Positions 43,602 through 49,811 of a DNA stretch of 64,000 bases are shown here, piece after piece. Below the pieces are notes generated by a model, which was given only the letters and a program-made list of their open reading frames with translations, was not told the DNA's origin and searched no databases. Position 1 is the first letter of the stretch, and the number at the start of each line of letters is the position of its first letter. The position numbers and the translations under genes were made by a program. Source of the stretch: Alphaproteobacteria bacterium (lineage in GTDB: Bacteria; Pseudomonadota; Alphaproteobacteria; UBA9219); assembly GCA_028866275.1 (NCBI GenBank), contig JAGWIK010000008.1:10707-74706 (forward strand), given 5' to 3'.

Positions 43602-43746
43602 TCGCGTCCGCAAGCCAATAGGGTGAGTAAGGCATTTTCTGGTTGCGTAATCCGGCGCTGGATCCACAGTGCTTCCAAATATTAAAATGGGGATGCAAGA
43701 AAAAATGGCCCCGAACGGGCTGTTTAACTGATATAATAAGTAAGTT

Positions 43747-43777
43747 TGGTTGCGGGGGCGCGATTTGGTTCAAATAT
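43747..43777. repeat. imperfect direct repeat of the tRNA-Met 3' end (candidate attR / island distal boundary)
   Basis: TGGTTGCGGGGGC (13/13) then GCGATTTGGTTCAAAT, matching TGGTTGCGGGGGCCAGATTTGAAC at 48863-48886. Same orientation. Confidence 0.55.
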
Positions 43778-44264
43778 TAACCCGCCGCTGCTCGTGCCAC
43801 TAGTCTACGAAGGCCAGCGGCTTAAGGCAAGCCCCATGCAGGCCGCCATCCCCGATTGCCCTGTGCCTGCCGGACAGCCAGCCGAACAGGCTGCGCAACC
43901 GATAGCAGCCTAGCCAAGCCCATAGCGCCCCTTGGCTGTGCCTTGGCAGGGCTTATAGCGGATGCTCTTTGACCGCCCGCCGCCACAAAAAGGGTGATCT
44001 CCCTAAACATCGGGGCGACACCCACGGCGAGACACCCTTAAATTAGGGTGGTAAGGGGTGCAGGCGTGGCCAAGCGTATGTATAATGCTCCAATGGTCGA
44101 GGCAGCAATTTTCTGCTAACAATGATGCATAAAAAGCTCACAACCATAGCTGTAAAGCCTTGGTTAACAAATCATTGCTAAAATTATTGGCGGCCTAAGT
44201 TTTGCTGTGTGTATAGTACGCTGTACCCAGCCACACCATCAACCCAGTTGCCTGAGGGGCAGTC

Positions 44265-45245
44265 ATGACAAGCGGCAAATTATTAAGACAACTGGTAAAA
44301 GCGGCAGCAGAAGGCAACCCAAGGTCGCTCGAAGATGCCATATCGCAGGTCGTGCATGAAGAACGGGACAAGCAGCACCACTTGTTGGCGAATGACCTGG
44401 AGAGAATTCTCTACGGCATGGGGGGCAAGGCGGGAGATAATTTAAAGAACACCTATGGGGTCGTTCCTTCAGATAAAGAACGAGGACTCGATCTTCTGGA
44501 AATATTTGAACCTGCGCGTTCTTTGAATGATGTTATTTTGTCTGAACAAAATAAAAAAATTGTAGACAGGGTAATAGTTGAGAACAATCAACGCGCTTTA
44601 CTTAAAAGCTTCGGTCTGAAACCTGCACAAAAAATTCTATTCTATGGCCCCCCAGGCTGCGGCAAGACTGTAACCGCAGAAGCGATGGCTTCCGACCTAA
44701 GCCTCCCTCTCGTTCTTGTAAGGATTGACAGCGTTATTTCCTCTTATCTGGGCGAGACGGCGGCCAATCTGCGTCGTGTGTTTGAGTTTATTCGAGGGCA
44801 GACCTATGTGGTGCTTTTCGACGAATTCGATTCCTTGGCCAAAGAACGCTCCATAGCAGGAGATCACGGCGAACTGAAACGAGTGGTGAACGCATTTCTG
44901 CAAATGTTAGATGCTTATAAAGGCGATAGCATTCTTATTGCTGCTACCAATCATGAGGCGTTATTAGATAATGCTATATGGCGACGTTTTGATGAAATCA
45001 TCCCCTTTAAGTATCCGAGCAAAGCCCAAATTAAAGAACTGGTTTCCAAAAAGTTAAAGAGCGTTCGACGCGACTTTGATATGGATGACGCAAAACTTAT
45101 TGGCAGCCTTTCAAAGAAATCGCATGCTGATATCGAAAGGGTAATAATTCGCGCACTGAAGGACATGGTCTTAGGGGGGGGGCAATTTTTAACTTTGAAA
45201 CATTTAAATGAGGCAATAAAGTTAGATCAGTCTCGGAACGCATAA
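44265..45245 (+). CDS. AAA+ ATPase (classical AAA clade), IetA-like
   Basis: Walker A GPPGCGKT, Walker B VVLFDEFD, sensor-1 ATN and an Arg-finger region, preceded by a ~110-aa unique N-terminal extension. It is 15 bp upstream of the peptidase gene. Confidence 0.8.
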   Translation: MTSGKLLRQLVKAAAEGNPRSLEDAISQVVHEERDKQHHLLANDLERILYGMGGKAGDNLKNTYGVVPSDKERGLDLLEIFEPARSLNDVILSEQNKKIVDRVIVENNQRALLKSFGLKPAQKILFYGPPGCGKTVTAEAMASDLSLPLVLVRIDSVISSYLGETAANLRRVFEFIRGQTYVVLFDEFDSLAKERSIAGDHGELKRVVNAFLQMLDAYKGDSILIAATNHEALLDNAIWRRFDEIIPFKYPSKAQIKELVSKKLKSVRRDFDMDDAKLIGSLSKKSHADIERVIIRALKDMVLGGGQFLTLKHLNEAIKLDQSRNA

Positions 45246-45260
45246 AGTCTTGGCTGGTCT

Positions 45261-47633
45261 ATGGCAGAACATATACGTTTGACGCGGGAACAGCGCGGAA
45301 GCACAAGACGTCCTTCATCTAGGCGTCCCAGAGGGATACGCCCCCCTGAAGATATAGTGAGCTTTTGCCAGAGGACAGAACAAATCATTCAAAGTTTCCG
45401 TAGCACTGCAACGGATCAAATCGATGGATACGATGTTCGGCGGTTAGTGAAGCTTGAACTCGACACCGGCCTATCAGTTGATGATATTGCAAAAATCGAC
45501 GGCATTGAGTTTGTCGATCAAGACGATGGGGGCGTTGTCATTGCCCTCGCGTCAGAAAACTCTCTTGCTGAGTTTGAAGCTAGGCTTTCTGCAATAGTCC
45601 GGCATGAAAAAGTTAAAGGGGCTGAGGTTATATATGCTCTGAAAGATATGACGTCTTGGGGAGAGGAAGACAGAAAAGGACCACGCCTAAAATCAGAGCG
45701 CATACCAGATAATGAGTTCTTGGTAGACGCGGAATTGTGGTCACTTGACGGGAAGGCTGCTGAAGTCACAAAGATGCGCTCAGCATTCGAAACGTGGGCG
45801 CAGCGTACGAATATTGATATCACTGATAAACTGGCAAGCGCTCCATATTATAGACTATCAGTTGATGCCAATAAACTGAGCTTGCTATTGAAGCATAGGG
45901 ATGTTCGCTTTGTTGACCTCCTTCCGAGGTACGGCATCTCCCCTTGCGATACCTCGGTAGACATACAAGATTTGACTGTCCAGTCATCGCTCACAAATAA
46001 TGCGGGCGTGCTGGCCATTTTGGATTCAGGGATAGCAAGCAACCATCCGCTTCTATCTTCCGCTGTGGGCGATGCGCAGTCGTTTATTCAGGGGGCTGAT
46101 GCACAAGATAGTCATGGCCACGGAACATGGGTTTCTGGGGTTGCCCTGTATGGAGATGTAAGAGCAGCAATTGAGGCGAGAACATTTGTTCCAAAAATCC
46201 GACTGCTGAGTGGCAAGGTTCTCGATGACTCTGCGGAATATGAAAGAAAAATCATACTCAATTCGGTTAAAGAAGCCGTCGAGTACTTTTCAAGCAACTA
46301 TGGCTGCAAGGTTTTTAATCTGTCTTTTGGCGATAATAAATTTCAATATAACGGAGGACGGTTGCAGGCTTTTGCCATCGGGCTAGACCAGCTAGCACGG
46401 AAACATGATGTTCTTTTTGTTGTATCGGCAGGCAATTTTGATATTGAGGGATTCGCGCATAATGCGAACAAGACGGTTGAGGAAGTTTACCCCAGTTGTT
46501 TGCTTGATTCAGAAGCCAAAGTTCTTGATCCCGGCTCAGCTGTAAACGCAGTTACAGTTGGTAGCATGGCTGAATACGATAGGCCGCCCATCTACGACGA
46601 TGAGGAGATAACAAAAACACCAATTTCTTCACGTCTCCATCCATCGCCATTCACACGATCTGGGCAATCTATTAAGGGGGCTATCAAACCAGATTTTGTA
46701 GATTATGGGGGCAATTACACTCGGCATCACGGCAGACAGAATCTGCATTTAACCGAGTTGGGGCAAATAACTTTTAATCAAGCATTTGCCACTGACGGCA
46801 GGCTTTTCAAATTGGTGAATGGGACAAGCTTTTCTGCTCCGAGAGTTTCTCATTTAGCGGCGCGACTGCATGGACTGATGCCGCAAGTCAGGGCAACCAC
46901 AATACGCGCTATCCTTGGTGTTCACGCATACCTTCCCCTAAATGAAGCGCAACAAGAAGCCTTGGTAACTGCGTTGGCGAACGGCGGAGATAGCCCTCAT
47001 CTAAGCCGCCTATATGGTTTTGGTCACGTGAGTGATGATTGGATTTTTACCTCTGGAGACGAAGCTGTAACGCTTTATGCCGAGGACAACATAAGCAACA
47101 ATGTAAATCACTTTTACGAGATACCTATTGTCGATGAATTTATTACAGGAAAGAAAAGAACGAGAAAATATACAATCGCTTTAGCTCATACCCCTGTTGT
47201 GAGGGCGTCACGTTTGGACTATATCGCAACAAGAATATTTTTCAGATTGAAGTTAGCTTCCTCACTTGATGAGGTTGCAGATATTTTTTCGAATAAAGAG
47301 AACGCCATTAGAGCAAACGAAAATGGAATTGGCAGCCCCGAATATAAGATCGGTCCGCAGATGAGGGATAGAAGCACCCTTCAGGTTTCGAGCTTTTCTT
47401 TCCAGCTTAATCCAAGGAAAATGCAGGGCAAGAAGCTTTATCTAGCAGTTGTAAGAAATGATCGTCCTTGGGCTAAAGGCGATCCGTTAGTCAAAGAGGA
47501 AGAGCCTTATTCGCTAGCTGTCCATTTCCAAGACCGAGAAGCTGAGCAGGCGAACTTATACAACGCCATTCAGGCAAGCCTGCAAGCCAAGATGCAAGGC
47601 CGCACACAAGGTAGGGTTCGCCACAACAGGTAA
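45261..47633 (+). CDS. subtilisin-like serine peptidase (MEROPS S8), IetS-like, 790 aa
   Basis: Complete Asp-His-Ser triad in canonical order (ILDSGIA, HGHGTWVSG, NGTSFSAPRVSHLAARL). It has large non-catalytic N-terminal (~230 aa) and C-terminal (~250 aa) regions. Confidence 0.85.
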   Translation: MAEHIRLTREQRGSTRRPSSRRPRGIRPPEDIVSFCQRTEQIIQSFRSTATDQIDGYDVRRLVKLELDTGLSVDDIAKIDGIEFVDQDDGGVVIALASENSLAEFEARLSAIVRHEKVKGAEVIYALKDMTSWGEEDRKGPRLKSERIPDNEFLVDAELWSLDGKAAEVTKMRSAFETWAQRTNIDITDKLASAPYYRLSVDANKLSLLLKHRDVRFVDLLPRYGISPCDTSVDIQDLTVQSSLTNNAGVLAILDSGIASNHPLLSSAVGDAQSFIQGADAQDSHGHGTWVSGVALYGDVRAAIEARTFVPKIRLLSGKVLDDSAEYERKIILNSVKEAVEYFSSNYGCKVFNLSFGDNKFQYNGGRLQAFAIGLDQLARKHDVLFVVSAGNFDIEGFAHNANKTVEEVYPSCLLDSEAKVLDPGSAVNAVTVGSMAEYDRPPIYDDEEITKTPISSRLHPSPFTRSGQSIKGAIKPDFVDYGGNYTRHHGRQNLHLTELGQITFNQAFATDGRLFKLVNGTSFSAPRVSHLAARLHGLMPQVRATTIRAILGVHAYLPLNEAQQEALVTALANGGDSPHLSRLYGFGHVSDDWIFTSGDEAVTLYAEDNISNNVNHFYEIPIVDEFITGKKRTRKYTIALAHTPVVRASRLDYIATRIFFRLKLASSLDEVADIFSNKENAIRANENGIGSPEYKIGPQMRDRSTLQVSSFSFQLNPRKMQGKKLYLAVVRNDRPWAKGDPLVKEEEPYSLAVHFQDREAEQANLYNAIQASLQAKMQGRTQGRVRHNR

Positions 47634-47648
47634 GAGGCACCTGGCCGA

Positions 47649-48383
47649 CTAATCGCAGGACTGTTTAACAAGGGCATCGGCAAGTTGTTCGTGCAGGGTG
47701 TTGGCTTGAGCTAGGTGAGCCTTTAGCGCGTCGCATAGAGCTATCAACTCATCGACCTTAGCAACGATGCGCCTTGTCTCTGCGGCGGGGGGGAGTGGCA
47801 CGCATATGTTGCTTAAGATGTCTAGATTGATGTTCTTTTGAGCAGTGGCAGGCGCAAAACTTTCAAGATGTGTTTTTGCTGTTTTGATAAAGAAATCAAA
47901 GTAACGAACTTCAAAAATGTTTTCAAAAGGAAGAAAGCCAACAACACTGTCTGGAAAACACGCCTCAAAGCCAAGCAGCGCGGTGTCCGCAATGTTAGCG
48001 GCAATAGTGATGCACATTGTTCCTTTTGGCCACAGCCTGCTTTGTTCTAACCCACGTTTATTGTAAGAGCTGCTATAAGTTTTTATCCACCCCTTCGCTC
48101 TTGCTACGTCACCGGTTTGAATAAGTGGGTAAGTTCCATTGCTAAAAAGAGCTGGATCATTCCTCGGTCTATGTTTTGATTTTCCACGAGACAATTCACC
48201 TATATCCGGCAGTTTTGTCCATGACCAACCAGTGGGAAGGTCGAAGGGCGCACTGGCTTCGGAAGCACTCTTTATGGATTTGCTAGATTGTTTTCTTTTG
48301 GCCGCAATTAACTCAAGGGATTTGCTTGCTGGTAGTTCAGTAGAATTTTGAGCGACTAACTTCCCCGTTACTGCTAACTGCAA
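47649..48383 (-). CDS. hsdS: Type I restriction-modification specificity subunit fragment (single-TRD half HsdS), orphan
   Basis: 244 aa, i.e. one target-recognition domain plus the conserved C-terminal coiled-coil region LPPAAETRRIVAKVDELIALCDALKAHL. No hsdM or hsdR in the window. Confidence 0.8.
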   Translation of the reverse strand: MQLAVTGKLVAQNSTELPASKSLELIAAKRKQSSKSIKSASEASAPFDLPTGWSWTKLPDIGELSRGKSKHRPRNDPALFSNGTYPLIQTGDVARAKGWIKTYSSSYNKRGLEQSRLWPKGTMCITIAANIADTALLGFEACFPDSVVGFLPFENIFEVRYFDFFIKTAKTHLESFAPATAQKNINLDILSNICVPLPPAAETRRIVAKVDELIALCDALKAHLAQANTLHEQLADALVKQSCD

Positions 48384-48591
48384 AATTGTTTGTTCTAGCG
48401 TGTTAATGCTACAACCTTATCCGCATTCCCAAACTGGTCGCTACATAAGGCGCAATCCGTCCAAAATCGGGATGCAGCCGCGAAAACAAGCCCAGAAACC
48501 GCAAGTACCGCAGAAACAACAACCAAAAACCCGCGTCAAAACCTCGCACCGCAGAAAAATCGTCACATCATCGGGTTTTTCAGCAGACTGC

Positions 48592-48723
48592 TAGTGGAGA
48601 TGCGCCACTGCTTGCCACCTACGGAAGCCGAGCACTGCCAGATTTTTCCGTCGCCTCGCCGGTAAAGCTGAAGCTTTCCATCCATCAAATTGAGGTCAGC
48701 CATGGGCACCTCCTGGGTCTGAT
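48592..48723 (-). pseudogene. tyrosine integrase N-terminal (arm-binding, DUF4102-like) remnant, truncated after ~43 codons
   Basis: My minus-strand translation is MADLNLMDGKLQLYRRGDGKIWQCSASVGGKQWRISTSSLLKNPMM*. It resembles the P4-type integrase N-terminal block (GGGLYLxVxxxGxKxWxxRY). It sits next to the tRNA 3' end. It is not in the ORF track because it is under 60 aa. Confidence 0.5.
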
Positions 48724-48838: not shown

Positions 48839-48862
48839 TCCATTTGATTTATTTATGAAACT

Positions 48863-48939
<77 letters not shown>

Positions 48940-49067
48940 TCACCAAAGGAACGGAAAAACCACCCGTTCGCGTGAAGAGGCGTTCTTTTGGCCCTTCGGC
49001 GGGTAAAAGTCAACCCGCTTTTCTGTCAAACGGCGACATTCGCTTTTCCCGGGGCGCAACAGATGAT

Positions 49068-49811
49068 ATGGTCGCGCGTCTTAATCTTAACAAGCCGTGC
49101 GGAATGCCGATGTGGTCTCTTCTCAAGCATAAATTCTCGAAAAAAGAGAAACTGGTGGCGAAATGGCGTTTTCGCCATCTCGTGCTGGCATTGATCGTCG
49201 GCATCGCCTTGGCGGGAGTTTTAATTGCCGTGCAAATGGGGCGCGACGTGTCCCGTGTCGATACGATGGATGCGCAAGCCCGCGCCACGGCCGATACCGC
49301 GTTGCCTGTGCCGCCCGACACCGGCAAAATCGGCGGGCCGTTCGCCTTGATTGACCAGGATGGCAAACCCGTTACCGACAAAGACTTTGCCGGAAAAGAC
49401 CTGTTGATCTATTTCGGCTACACATCGTGTCCGGATATGTGCCCGACCGGCCTGCAAAGCATGTCGCGCGCGCTTGACATGCTGGGGGCCGACGCCGACA
49501 AGGTCAAATTGCTGTTTATCACGGTCGACCCGGCGCGCGATACGCCGGATAAGATCAAGGAATATGACGCGGAATTCAGCCCCCGGATCGTCGGCCTGAC
49601 CGGAACGGCCGCGCAAATTGCCGCCGTGGCCAAGGAATATCAGGTTTATTATAAGAAAGAATCCGATGACGAAGATTATGTCGTCGATCATTCGACCCAA
49701 CTCTTTCTTATGGGGCCGTCGAACAATCTGGTGACGACCTTTGACGAACAGGTGCCGCCGCAGGTCATTGTTGACGCGTTGCACAAGCTCTGGGCCCAGA
49801 AAAAGCCATAA
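49068..49811 (+). CDS. SCO1/SenC-family copper chaperone (thioredoxin fold)
   Basis: N-terminal TM and a CPDMCP metal-binding motif with the downstream His (DHSTQLFLMGP). The start is uncertain (49068, 49104 or 49110). The ORF-track start at 48903 overlaps the tRNA. Confidence 0.8.
   Translation: MVARLNLNKPCGMPMWSLLKHKFSKKEKLVAKWRFRHLVLALIVGIALAGVLIAVQMGRDVSRVDTMDAQARATADTALPVPPDTGKIGGPFALIDQDGKPVTDKDFAGKDLLIYFGYTSCPDMCPTGLQSMSRALDMLGADADKVKLLFITVDPARDTPDKIKEYDAEFSPRIVGLTGTAAQIAAVAKEYQVYYKKESDDEDYVVDHSTQLFLMGPSNNLVTTFDEQVPPQVIVDALHKLWAQKKP

What the first reader, a model, noticed from the sequence alone, without database searches (positions are those of the whole stretch)
44265..47633. Two-gene AAA+ ATPase + S8 subtilase operon on a low-GC island: candidate IetAS-like anti-phage module
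A 326-aa classical AAA+ ATPase has intact Walker A and B motifs and an unusual ~110-aa N-terminal extension. It is separated by only 15 bp from a 790-aa subtilisin-like peptidase with an intact Asp/His/Ser triad, large uncharacterised N- and C-terminal regions and no signal peptide. The pair sits on horizontally acquired DNA beside a restriction-modification fragment, which is typical of defence islands. An ATPase plus S8-protease pair is the architecture reported for the IetAS (Gao_Iet) defence system, whose mechanism is essentially unknown. This locus may be a divergent member or a related protease-effector abortive-infection system.
Basis: partly seen in the sequence, partly recalled or inferred. 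Interest (0 to 1): 0.82.

Follow-up and report, generated by a model that had tools for sequence, protein, structure and literature searches.

The report
IetAS protease–ATPase anti-phage module
This is an intact copy of the already described two-gene IetAS system: an AAA+ ATPase that restrains a cytoplasmic subtilisin-like protease, used for phage defence and for stabilising mobile DNA. It sits on a small, decayed island at a tRNA-Met gene, so it is a routine new member of a known family whose mechanism is still unsolved.

Summary

- **The genes.** ORFs 44265-45245 (326 aa) and 45261-47633 (790 aa) lie 15 nt apart on a low-GC stretch (0.46-0.49 against 0.55-0.64).
- **Family.** They match the PADLOC IetA model (8e-96) and IetS model (2e-198) over essentially their full length. 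This is a standard member of one IetAS subfamily (Pfam Y4kK_N + Y4kK_2nd + Peptidase_S8), not a divergent relative.
- **Active sites.** All ATPase and protease catalytic residues are invariant across relatives.
- **Pairing.** An IetA gene sits directly upstream of IetS in all 80 relative loci that could be judged, across many phyla. The recurrent neighbours there are restriction-modification and DISARM genes.
- **Island.** The cassette lies on a ~5.1-kb island bounded by tRNA-Met and a partial repeat of its 3' end. The island also carries an integrase stub and half an hsdS gene.
- **Distance from tested members.** Identity to the founding pTiC58 pair is 34% (IetA) and 27% (IetS). Both proteins score below NCBIfam's IteA/IteS cut-offs.
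- **Mechanism (inferred).** From the literature and the models, IetS is a cytoplasmic protease toxin, held off by ATP-driven IetA remodelling until phage infection triggers abortive infection.

Verdict: new member of a known kind. Interest is modest.

The parts
43729..43767 (.). Left island boundary: an imperfect direct repeat of the tRNA-Met 3' end plus adjacent bases (core TTGGTTGCGGGGGC), an attL-like site
   Evidence: the repeat finder family D2 pairs 43729-43767 with 48845-48883: 77% over 39 nt, a 14-nt exact core, spacing 5116 nt. The sequence was read.
44265..45245 (+). ietA: AAA+ ATPase of 326 aa (the antitoxin/regulator component)
   Evidence: - PADLOC IetA PDLC02196 8.3e-96; Pfam AAA 3e-30.
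- 36-sequence alignment with all motifs invariant.
- Model pLDDT 80.5.
44646..44669 (+). IetA Walker A, GPPGCGKT (K134)
   Evidence: Motif position; invariant.
44739..44756 (+). IetA pore-loop-1 region, SSYLGE (Y161-L162-G163)
   Evidence: Motif position. S159, S160, L162, G163, E164 and T165 are invariant; position 161 is Y in most sequences and F or L in a few.
44814..44831 (+). IetA Walker B, LFDEFD (D186, E187)
44943..44990 (+). IetA sensor-1 (ATNH, N229) through the arginine fingers (WRRF, R240 and R241)
45246..45260 (+). 15-nt ietA-ietS spacer (AGTCTTGGCTGGTCT), consistent with one operon
   Evidence: Sequence printed. Relatives show short tblastn gaps between the IetA match and the IetS match, mostly 25-120 nt.
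45261..47633 (+). ietS: cytoplasmic S8 subtilase of 790 aa (the toxin/effector component). Layout: N-terminal alpha/beta modules, S8 catalytic domain, C-terminal beta-sandwich, terminal helix.
   Evidence: - PADLOC IetS PDLC02198 1.9e-198; Pfam S8 1.4e-38.
- Relatives carry Y4kK_N + Y4kK_2nd + S8.
- Model pLDDT 87, pTM 0.82.
46020..46031 (+). IetS catalytic Asp motif, LDSG (D255)
46113..46127 (+). IetS catalytic His motif, HGHGT (H287)
46425..46436 (+). IetS oxyanion Asn motif, SAGN (N392)
46821..46841 (+). IetS catalytic Ser motif, GTSFSAP (S523)
47649..48383 (-). Orphan half of a Type I R-M specificity gene (hsdS): one target-recognition domain plus the C-terminal conserved helix. It is island cargo, not part of IetAS.
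   Evidence: - Pfam Methylase_S 1.9e-15.
- PADLOC Specificity_I 2.7e-46, matching model positions 203-379 of 387.
- No hsdM or hsdR was detected in the window with neighbour-derived queries.
48563..48703 (-). 46-codon stub of a tyrosine integrase N-terminus, followed by a stop codon (a decayed island integrase)
   Evidence: - Translation.
- tblastn against plasmids aligns it to the first 39 residues of an annotated tyrosine recombinase (CP041206, 4e-5; the match begins at the CDS start) and to a site-specific integrase (AP018829, 1e-3).
- No Pfam or phage-collection hit.
48863..48939 (-). tRNA-Met (CAT): the integration target and right island boundary. Its 3' end is the right-hand copy of the direct repeat (48845-48883).
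   Evidence: ARAGORN; Rfam tRNA 59.4 bits; repeat D2.

Best explanation
The locus is an intact two-gene IetAS module of the subfamily matched by PADLOC models PDLC02196 and PDLC02198 (Pfam Y4kK-type IetS). It arrived by horizontal transfer on a ~5.1-kb tRNA-Met integrative island that has since lost its integrase.

**Shown here**
- Family membership of both proteins, with intact active sites.
- A cytoplasmic location for the protease.
- Strict two-gene linkage across many phyla.
- A defence-island or mobile-element context in relatives.
- Strong protein-level conservation, indicating purifying selection.

**Taken from the literature on other IetAS members**
- IetS is a protease toxin, and active IetA is its antitoxin.
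- The system defends by abortive infection and needs the protease active site.
- It can be triggered by a single phage protein.

**Inferred mechanism**
- IetA is a classical-clade AAA+ protein with an aromatic pore loop and arginine fingers. It probably forms a ring that uses ATP to keep IetS inactive, by remodelling or resetting it. This would resemble the way Trip13 keeps CBASS HORMA signalling off.
- IetS may be further restrained by its own N-terminal pro-domain-like module.
- A phage product that blocks, titrates or outcompetes IetA would release IetS. IetS would then cleave essential cytoplasmic proteins and stop growth before phage release.
- The same toxin-antitoxin logic makes the cassette self-stabilising on mobile DNA.
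For: **Membership**
- PADLOC IetA 8.3e-96 and IetS 1.9e-198, both near full length.
- Large families share the same architecture: 1099 IetS-type hits and 5962 IetA-type hits at E<=1e-10.

**Active sites**
- IetS D255, H287, N392 and S523 are invariant.
- IetA K134, D186/E187, N229 and R240/R241 are invariant, as is the pore loop S-S-[Y]-L-G.

**Structure**
- IetS is cytoplasmic.

**Linkage and context**
- IetA is immediately upstream of IetS in 80 of 80 evaluable loci, and no third gene is conserved.
- Recurrent neighbours are MTase_III, REase_III, DrmD, DrmMI, REase_I, HKD+Snf2 and PDC-S02.
- The closest clade lies next to integrases, a conjugative type IV secretion system (T4SS), IS elements and a RES-domain gene.

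**Selection and transfer**
- Against the L001 homolog, amino-acid identity is 90% (IetA) and 79% (IetS) while nucleotide identity is 75% and 71%. dN is 0.065 and 0.147, and dS is saturated.
- DNA homology with L001 covers exactly 44265-47623.
- The cassette GC is 0.45 in both hosts.

**Island**
- tRNA-Met, direct repeat and integrase stub.

**Literature**
- The toxin-antitoxin roles, the failure to clone an ietA mutant and the need for protease activity: PMC13069673.
- Abortive infection and triggering by SPbeta yosG: 10.1101/2022.08.27.505566.
- Co-localisation of Type III R-M with ietAS: 10.1101/2022.08.21.504612.
Against: - No experiment exists for this locus or, as far as I could establish, for this subfamily.
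- The members I could compare directly are distant. The founding pTiC58 pair, characterised as a plasmid toxin-antitoxin system, is 34% (IetA) and 27% (IetS, S8 domain only) identical. Both window proteins fall below NCBIfam's IteA/IteS equivalog cut-offs, 246 against 510 bits and 120 against 900 bits. I did not obtain the sequences of the phage-tested E. coli and B. cereus systems.
- The rest of the island is decayed, so the cassette could be a recently stranded relic.
- No promoter was identified. The sigma-70 pattern scan found no more sites than in shuffled sequence and none upstream of ietA.
Confidence: 0.8

Rival explanations
1. The cassette works mainly as an addiction (post-segregational killing) module that stabilises mobile DNA. 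Phage defence would be secondary or absent in this host.
For: - IetAS was first described as the stability and incompatibility toxin-antitoxin system of pTiC58 (cited in PMC13069673). The pTiC58 pair was located.
- The closest homolog (91% and 79% identity) sits inside a conjugative element between IS66 copies.
- Other close relatives lie next to an integrase or IS1595.
- The window copy is on a tRNA-Met island.
Against: - Across 80 more distant loci the recurrent neighbours are defence genes, not mobility genes.
- Other IetAS members have demonstrated anti-phage activity.
- The island here can no longer excise, because only an integrase stub remains. Stabilisation would give no present benefit, yet the genes remain intact.
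- The two roles are not mutually exclusive.
Confidence: 0.3
2. IetA and IetS form a two-component ATP-dependent protease, analogous to ClpXP or PAN-20S. In this reading IetA unfolds substrates and feeds them to IetS, acting as an activator or specificity factor rather than an antitoxin.
For: - IetA belongs structurally and by sequence to the unfoldase clade and keeps an aromatic pore loop.
- An unfoldase gene directly upstream of a peptidase gene is the classical operon logic of ATP-dependent proteases.
Against: - Genetics in other IetAS members point to IetA restraining IetS. IetS is the toxin, and ietA mutants could not be cloned (PMC13069673).
- Nothing in the monomer model indicates a chambered peptidase.
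Confidence: 0.12
3. The locus is a non-functional relic: a stranded cassette on a decaying island, no longer expressed.
For: - The neighbouring island genes are broken: a 46-codon integrase stub and half an hsdS gene.
- No promoter-like site was found upstream of ietA.
- One close relative (L086) appears to have a split IetA, called as 140 + 159 aa.
Against: - Both ORFs are full length relative to more than 90 homologs and to the PADLOC models, and every catalytic residue is intact.
- Divergence from the nearest homolog is overwhelmingly synonymous.
- A toxin-antitoxin pair resists loss of the antitoxin gene.
Confidence: 0.07
4. The pair is a housekeeping secreted subtilase with a dedicated chaperone or maturation ATPase.
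For: S8 proteases are commonly secreted. Weak NCBIfam similarity to the type VII secretion (T7SS) proteins mycosin (2.8e-12) and EccA (9.5e-10) recalls a secretion-linked ATPase/protease pair.
Against: - There is no signal peptide or membrane segment.
- The mycosin and EccA scores are far below their cut-offs, and the IetA/IetS models score vastly higher.
- The cassette is on a low-GC island and is patchily distributed across phyla in defence contexts.
Confidence: 0.01

Closest known systems
IetAS of Agrobacterium pTiC58 (founding member; Yamamoto et al. 2009, cited in PMC13069673)
   Same: - Same gene order and tight spacing: a 328-aa AAA+ ATPase followed by an S8 peptidase.
- IetA aligns from residue 1 over 277 residues at 34% identity (1e-50), including the N-terminal helices.
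- The S8 catalytic motifs are shared.
- Both pairs hit the same PADLOC IetA/IetS models.
   Different: - IetS is only 27% identical, and only across the S8 domain. The N- and C-terminal regions do not align by BLASTP.
- The pTiC58 IetS is 836 aa and scores 85.6 bits on PDLC02198, against 659 bits for the window protein.
- The pTiC58 copy is plasmid-borne; the window copy is on a chromosomal island.
Gao_Iet / IetAS anti-phage systems tested in E. coli and B. cereus (Gao 2020; Stokar-Avihail 2022/23; Wu 2023)
   Same: A two-gene AAA+ ATPase plus S8 protease module, detected by the same PADLOC family and found near Type III R-M.
   Different: - The window proteins score below NCBIfam's IteA/IteS equivalog cut-offs, 246 against 510 bits and 120 against 900 bits. 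They therefore belong to another subfamily.
- No phage data exist for this subfamily, as far as I could find.
- The trigger and the target are unknown.
ietHAS (Liu-DS4; PMC13069673)
   Same: IetA plus IetS form the core. In several relatives of the window pair a DrmD-like SNF2 helicase lies directly upstream (L037, L045, L049, L064, L066).
   Different: The window has no helicase. Upstream of ietA there is only ~0.5 kb of non-coding DNA and the island boundary.
Y4kK/Y4kL-type proteins (source of the Pfam names PF27160 Y4kK_N and PF27210 Y4kK_2nd)
   Same: Relatives of the window IetS carry exactly the architecture Y4kK_N + Y4kK_2nd + Peptidase_S8.
   Different: The local Pfam copy lacks these two models, so the window protein itself could not be scored against them. 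The match is inferred from the 79%-identical homolog P0002.
CBASS Trip13-HORMA regulation (a functional analogy only)
   Different: IetA is closer to the FtsH, p97 and PAN AAA+ proteins. There is no HORMA protein, cyclase or nucleotide signal, and the effector is a protease.
Subtilase KP-43 and pro-subtilisins (structural neighbours)
   Different: - Those enzymes are secreted and autoprocessed, whereas IetS is cytoplasmic.
- IetS has two extra N-terminal modules and a paired ATPase.
- There is no sequence-level match to Inhibitor_I9.

Membership tests
IetAS (PADLOC ietAS / DefenseFinder Gao_Iet) | An IetA-family AAA+ ATPase detected by the family profile | tested here: met
   PDLC02196 8.3e-96, residues 4-322 of 326. 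Three further IetA models score between 1e-83 and 5e-50.
IetAS (PADLOC ietAS / DefenseFinder Gao_Iet) | An IetS-family S8 peptidase detected by the family profile | tested here: met
   PDLC02198 1.9e-198, residues 3-787 against model positions 5-792 of 795. Seven further IetS models also match.
IetAS (PADLOC ietAS / DefenseFinder Gao_Iet) | The two genes are adjacent on the same strand, with ietA first | tested here: met
   15-nt spacer. The same arrangement holds in 80 of 80 evaluable relative loci and in pTiC58.
IetAS (PADLOC ietAS / DefenseFinder Gao_Iet) | Intact ATPase and protease catalytic residues | tested here: met
   IetA K134, D186/E187, N229 and R240/R241; IetS D255, H287, N392 and S523. 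All are present and conserved.
IetAS (PADLOC ietAS / DefenseFinder Gao_Iet) | IetS is toxic and active IetA neutralises it (toxin-antitoxin behaviour) | not testable with these tools
   Known only from other members (PMC13069673).
IetAS (PADLOC ietAS / DefenseFinder Gao_Iet) | Protection against phage infection that depends on the protease | not testable with these tools
   Known only from other members.
NCBIfam IteA/IteS anti-phage equivalogs (NF042959, NF042956) | Whole-protein score at or above the curated equivalog cut-off | tested here: not met
   IteA scores 246.3 bits against a cut-off of 510. IteS scores 120.4 bits against a cut-off of 900. The proteins are homologous but are not the same equivalog group.
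ietHAS (helicase-containing IetAS variant) | A SNF2/DrmD-like helicase gene adjacent to ietAS | tested here: not met
   There is no ORF of that kind between 43601 and 44265 or downstream of ietS. It is present in some relatives.
Type I restriction-modification system | hsdM and hsdR together with a full two-TRD hsdS | tested here: not met
   Only a 244-aa single-TRD hsdS fragment is present. tblastn with neighbour-derived R-M proteins found no hsdM or hsdR in the window. That test is limited to those query proteins.
tRNA-targeted integrative island | A tRNA gene at one end and a direct repeat of its 3' part at the other end | tested here: met
   tRNA-Met is at 48863-48939. Repeat D2 pairs 43729-43767 with 48845-48883. 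About 0.06 exact 14-nt matches would be expected by chance in this region (my estimate).
tRNA-targeted integrative island | A functional tyrosine integrase next to the tRNA | tested here: not met
   Only a 46-codon N-terminal stub ending in a stop codon remains.

The most novel reading that the evidence does not exclude
In this Y4kK-type subfamily, IetS may be an intracellular zymogen. Its own uncleaved, pro-domain-like N-terminal module would block the active site. IetA's pore-loop-driven unfolding of that module, or of a conserved terminal segment, would then be the switch that gates protease activity during infection. That would be an AAA+-gated subtilase zymogen, a regulatory logic not yet described in bacterial immunity.
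Probability: 0.15. Interest if true: 0.6.

Novelty: new member of a known kind. Interest (0 to 1): 0.28.

Why it matters
- **Annotation.** The public record labels the two proteins only 'ATP-binding protein' and 'S8 family peptidase', and it truncates IetS by 62 residues. The locus should be re-labelled as IetAS.
- **A possible study subject.** The mechanism of IetAS is still unknown in the literature available here. This compact helicase-free copy belongs to a very large and diverse subfamily, and its monomers model well (pLDDT 87 and 80.5). It would suit structural and biochemical work.
- **Testable leads.** These are the pore-loop-bearing unfoldase-type IetA, the pro-domain-like module and KP-43-like core of IetS, and the strict two-gene co-inheritance.
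- **Overall.** None of this would surprise a specialist.

Tried and rejected
**Integrase stub**
- Pfam gave no meaningful hit, and tblastn against phages gave no match.
- It was resolved only by tblastn against plasmids.
- It does not resemble the integrase next to the related cassette in L083.

**Sequence searches with no result**
- An exact look-up of the NCBI 728-aa protein found nothing on record.
- The search of solved structures found only generic subtilisins and p97/Cdc48, with no IetA or IetS structure.
- A DNA search of the 0.5-kb region upstream of ietA against plasmids found no match.
- Rfam found only the tRNA between 43000 and 49500.

**Regulatory signals**
- The promoter and terminator scan found no more sites than in shuffled sequence and nothing upstream of ietA.

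**Literature**
- Yamamoto 2009 and Gao 2020 are not held. Their content is cited second-hand from PMC13069673.
- No mechanistic IetAS paper turned up.
- A 2026 review and the 'embedded defences' preprint do not mention IetAS.

**Analyses that fell short**
- dN/dS could not be computed as a ratio because dS is saturated.
I therefore could not map which IetS residues align to the pro-domain, or check whether the conserved N-terminal strand docks in the active site.

**Rejected explanations**
- A secreted protease with a chaperone: rejected because IetS has no signal peptide and sits in a defence context.
- A functional Type I R-M neighbour: rejected because only half an hsdS gene is present.


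Full report
**1. Observation**

The two ORFs are present exactly as described. They are 44265-45245 (+, 326 aa) and 45261-47633 (+, 790 aa), separated by 15 nt.
- Pfam places an AAA domain at residues 124-249 of the first (3e-30) and a Peptidase_S8 domain at residues 250-588 of the second (1.4e-38).
- The quoted motifs are real. GPPGCGKT is at residues 128-135 and LFDEFD at 184-189 of the ATPase. LDSG (D255), HGHGT (H287), SAGN (N392) and GTSFSAP (S523) are in the peptidase.
- The peptidase has no hydrophobic N-terminus or membrane segment (maximum 19-residue hydropathy 0.99), so it is cytoplasmic.
- GC falls to 0.46-0.49 between 44001 and 49000, against 0.55-0.64 elsewhere.
- The window is otherwise core chromosome: rpoB, rpoC, alaS, an RND efflux operon, SCO1, ATP synthase F0 genes and kdp.

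**2. What it is**

PADLOC profiles settle the identity.
- The ATPase matches IetA model PDLC02196 at 8.3e-96 over residues 4-322.
- The peptidase matches IetS model PDLC02198 at 1.9e-198 over residues 3-787, against model positions 5-792 of 795.
- NCBIfam's best hits are also the anti-phage IteA/IteS models, but below their equivalog cut-offs: 246 against 510 bits and 120 against 900 bits.
- The founding pair on pTiC58 (L082 37874-38860 and 38864-41374) is 34% identical for IetA. It is 27% identical for IetS, and only across the S8 domain.
- The pTiC58 pair scores lower on the PADLOC models than the window pair does: 239 and 85.6 bits, against 320 and 659 bits.

The locus is therefore a typical member of one large IetAS subfamily. 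It is distant from the members that have been studied experimentally.

**3. Family size and conservation**
- The IetS-type protein has 1099 relatives at E<=1e-10 among the candidates scored. All carry the precomputed architecture PF27160 (Y4kK_N) + PF27210 (Y4kK_2nd) + PF00082.
- IetA has 5962 relatives at the same threshold.
- The IetS triad and oxyanion residue are invariant in 20 aligned sequences. In the 93-sequence alignment H287, N392 and S523 stay invariant and D255 is at least 90% conserved. Many positions in the N- and C-terminal regions are also conserved.
- In IetA, these are invariant: Walker A K134, Walker B D186/E187, sensor-1 N229, arginine fingers R240/R241 and the pore-loop segment S159-S160-[Y161]-L162-G163-E164-T165. 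An N-terminal helical segment is also invariant (E33, R34, H38, L40-A42, D44-E46, L49-G51).
- The public NCBI version of the window's IetS starts at V63 and is 728 aa. Homologs and the PADLOC model align from residue 3, so the ATG at 45261 is the better start.

**4. Linkage and context**

A scan of one genome per species found 446 stretches encoding relatives. The best 80 loci come from many phyla.
- tblastn with the window IetA finds a full-length homolog (48-60% identity) directly upstream on the same strand in every locus with upstream sequence available.
- L042 could not be judged because only 150 nt precede the gene. L012 and L077 are cut by contig ends but still show the IetA C-terminus.
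- Clustering all neighbouring ORFs found no third conserved gene.
- The most recurrent neighbours are all defence genes: Type III methyltransferase (14 + 4 loci), DISARM DrmD (8) and DrmMI (7), Type III restriction enzyme (5), HKD+Snf2 (4), Type I restriction enzyme (4) and PDC-S02 (4).
- Recurrent gene orders include helicase-IetA-IetS-MTase III-REase III. This matches the published 'ietHAS' variant and the reported co-localisation of Type III R-M with ietAS.
- The window's closest clade (53-79% identity) is on mobile DNA. L001 lies inside a conjugative element between IS66 copies. L083 and L084 lie next to a tyrosine integrase and an IS1595. L085 lies next to a RES-domain gene.

**5. The island**
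- A tRNA-Met gene lies at 48863-48939 (-).
- Its 3' end and adjacent bases (48845-48883) recur as an imperfect direct repeat at 43729-43767. The repeat is 77% identical over 39 nt, has a 14-nt exact core and is spaced 5116 nt away.
- Next to the tRNA, a 46-codon ORF ending in a stop codon aligns to the first 39 residues of an annotated tyrosine recombinase (4e-5; the match starts at the CDS start). It also aligns to a site-specific integrase (1e-3).
- Between this stub and ietS lies the 3' half of an hsdS gene. I found no hsdM or hsdR partners.

The cassette therefore arrived on a tRNA-Met integrative element that has since been reduced to about 5.1 kb.
- DNA homology to the nearest relative (L001) covers exactly 44265-47623.
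- The cassette GC is 0.45 in both hosts, while the L001 contig as a whole is 0.55.
- Amino-acid identity (90% and 79%) far exceeds what 75% and 71% nucleotide identity would give without constraint. dN is 0.065 and 0.147 and dS is saturated, which indicates purifying selection.

**6. Structure-based inference**

*IetA model (pLDDT 80.5)*
- It shows a three-helix N-terminal bundle (residues 4-50), a disordered linker (51-62) and a canonical AAA+ module.
- The sequence search of solved structures agrees, with p97 D2 at 1e-48.

*IetS model (pLDDT 87, pTM 0.82)*
- It begins with a short conserved N-terminal strand, followed by a disordered Arg-rich segment (residues 17-26).
- Next come alpha/beta modules at 61-113 and 127-220. 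The last of these is a beta-alpha-beta-beta-alpha-beta unit directly preceding the catalytic domain.
- The S8 domain spans residues 249-590.
- It ends with a beta-sandwich (602-757) and a basic C-terminal helix (766-789).

**7. Most likely mechanism**

*Reported for other IetAS members*
- IetS is a protease toxin and IetA is its antitoxin.
- Plasmids carrying mutated ietA could not be constructed.
- The protease active site is required for defence (PMC13069673).
- The B. cereus system acts by abortive infection, and expression of the SPbeta gene yosG makes it toxic (10.1101/2022.08.27.505566).
- That literature states that the mechanism is unknown.

*Inferred for this locus*
- An IetA ring continuously spends ATP to keep the cytoplasmic protease IetS inactive. 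It would do so by remodelling or resetting IetS, possibly through the conserved termini or the pro-domain-like module.
- A phage factor would disable or outcompete IetA.
- IetS would then cleave essential proteins and abort the infection.
- The same circuit acts as an addiction module on mobile DNA.

*Rivals*
- **A mainly addiction role** is not exclusive of defence.
- **A ClpXP-like unfoldase-peptidase pair** is disfavoured by the published genetics.
- **A decaying relic** is disfavoured by the intact ORFs and active sites and by the strong protein-level conservation.
- **A secreted protease with a chaperone** is excluded by the lack of a signal peptide and by the context.

**8. Verdict**

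The locus would be called by standard defence-finder tools, so it is a new member of a known kind, not a new system. What interest remains lies in the unsolved IetAS mechanism. This compact copy offers testable structural leads and belongs to a large subfamily for which I found no experimental data.

Noticed in passing
window 45261-45449: The public NCBI protein for this gene (P0001, 728 aa) starts at a GTG 62 codons downstream (V63). Homologs and the PADLOC IetS model align from residue 3, so the deposited annotation probably truncates the N-terminus.
   Followed up: yes
L037, L045, L049, L064, L066; L028, L079: Two gene orders recur in relatives. One is DrmD-like SNF2 helicase - IetA - IetS - Type III MTase - (PDC-S02) - Type III REase. 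The other is DrmD - DrmMI - IetA - IetS. IetAS therefore often sits inside or against DISARM and Type III R-M operons, which resembles the published ietHAS variant.
   Followed up: partly
window 43800-44040: A GC-rich stretch (~0.63) lies inside the otherwise low-GC island, between the left repeat and ietA. It has no convincing ORF, no Rfam hit and no DNA match in the plasmid collection. Its origin is unexplained.
   Followed up: partly
[not shown]
   Followed up: no
window 48903-49811: The mechanical ORF for the SCO1/SenC-family protein (Pfam hit at residues 144-275) starts inside tRNA-Met on the opposite strand. The real start codon must lie further downstream.
   Followed up: no
phage records H31-H37 (for example OR818368, Pseudomonas phage PfAC08; Paenibacillus phages Yyerffej, Dash and Callan): IetA-like ATPases (33-37% identity, about 90% coverage) are encoded in temperate and filamentous phage genomes. 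This agrees with reports of IetAS carried by Pf prophages.
   Followed up: no
L086 2-1085: In one close relative (P0003 locus) the IetA gene is called as two pieces (140 aa and 159 aa) upstream of an intact IetS. It may be a frameshifted antitoxin gene or an assembly error.
   Followed up: no
window 47649-48383 and 48384-48562: The hsdS half begins in what looks like the central conserved region and abuts the integrase stub. This suggests a single deletion removed the 3' part of the integrase gene together with the 5' half of hsdS and any hsdM/hsdR genes.
   Followed up: partly
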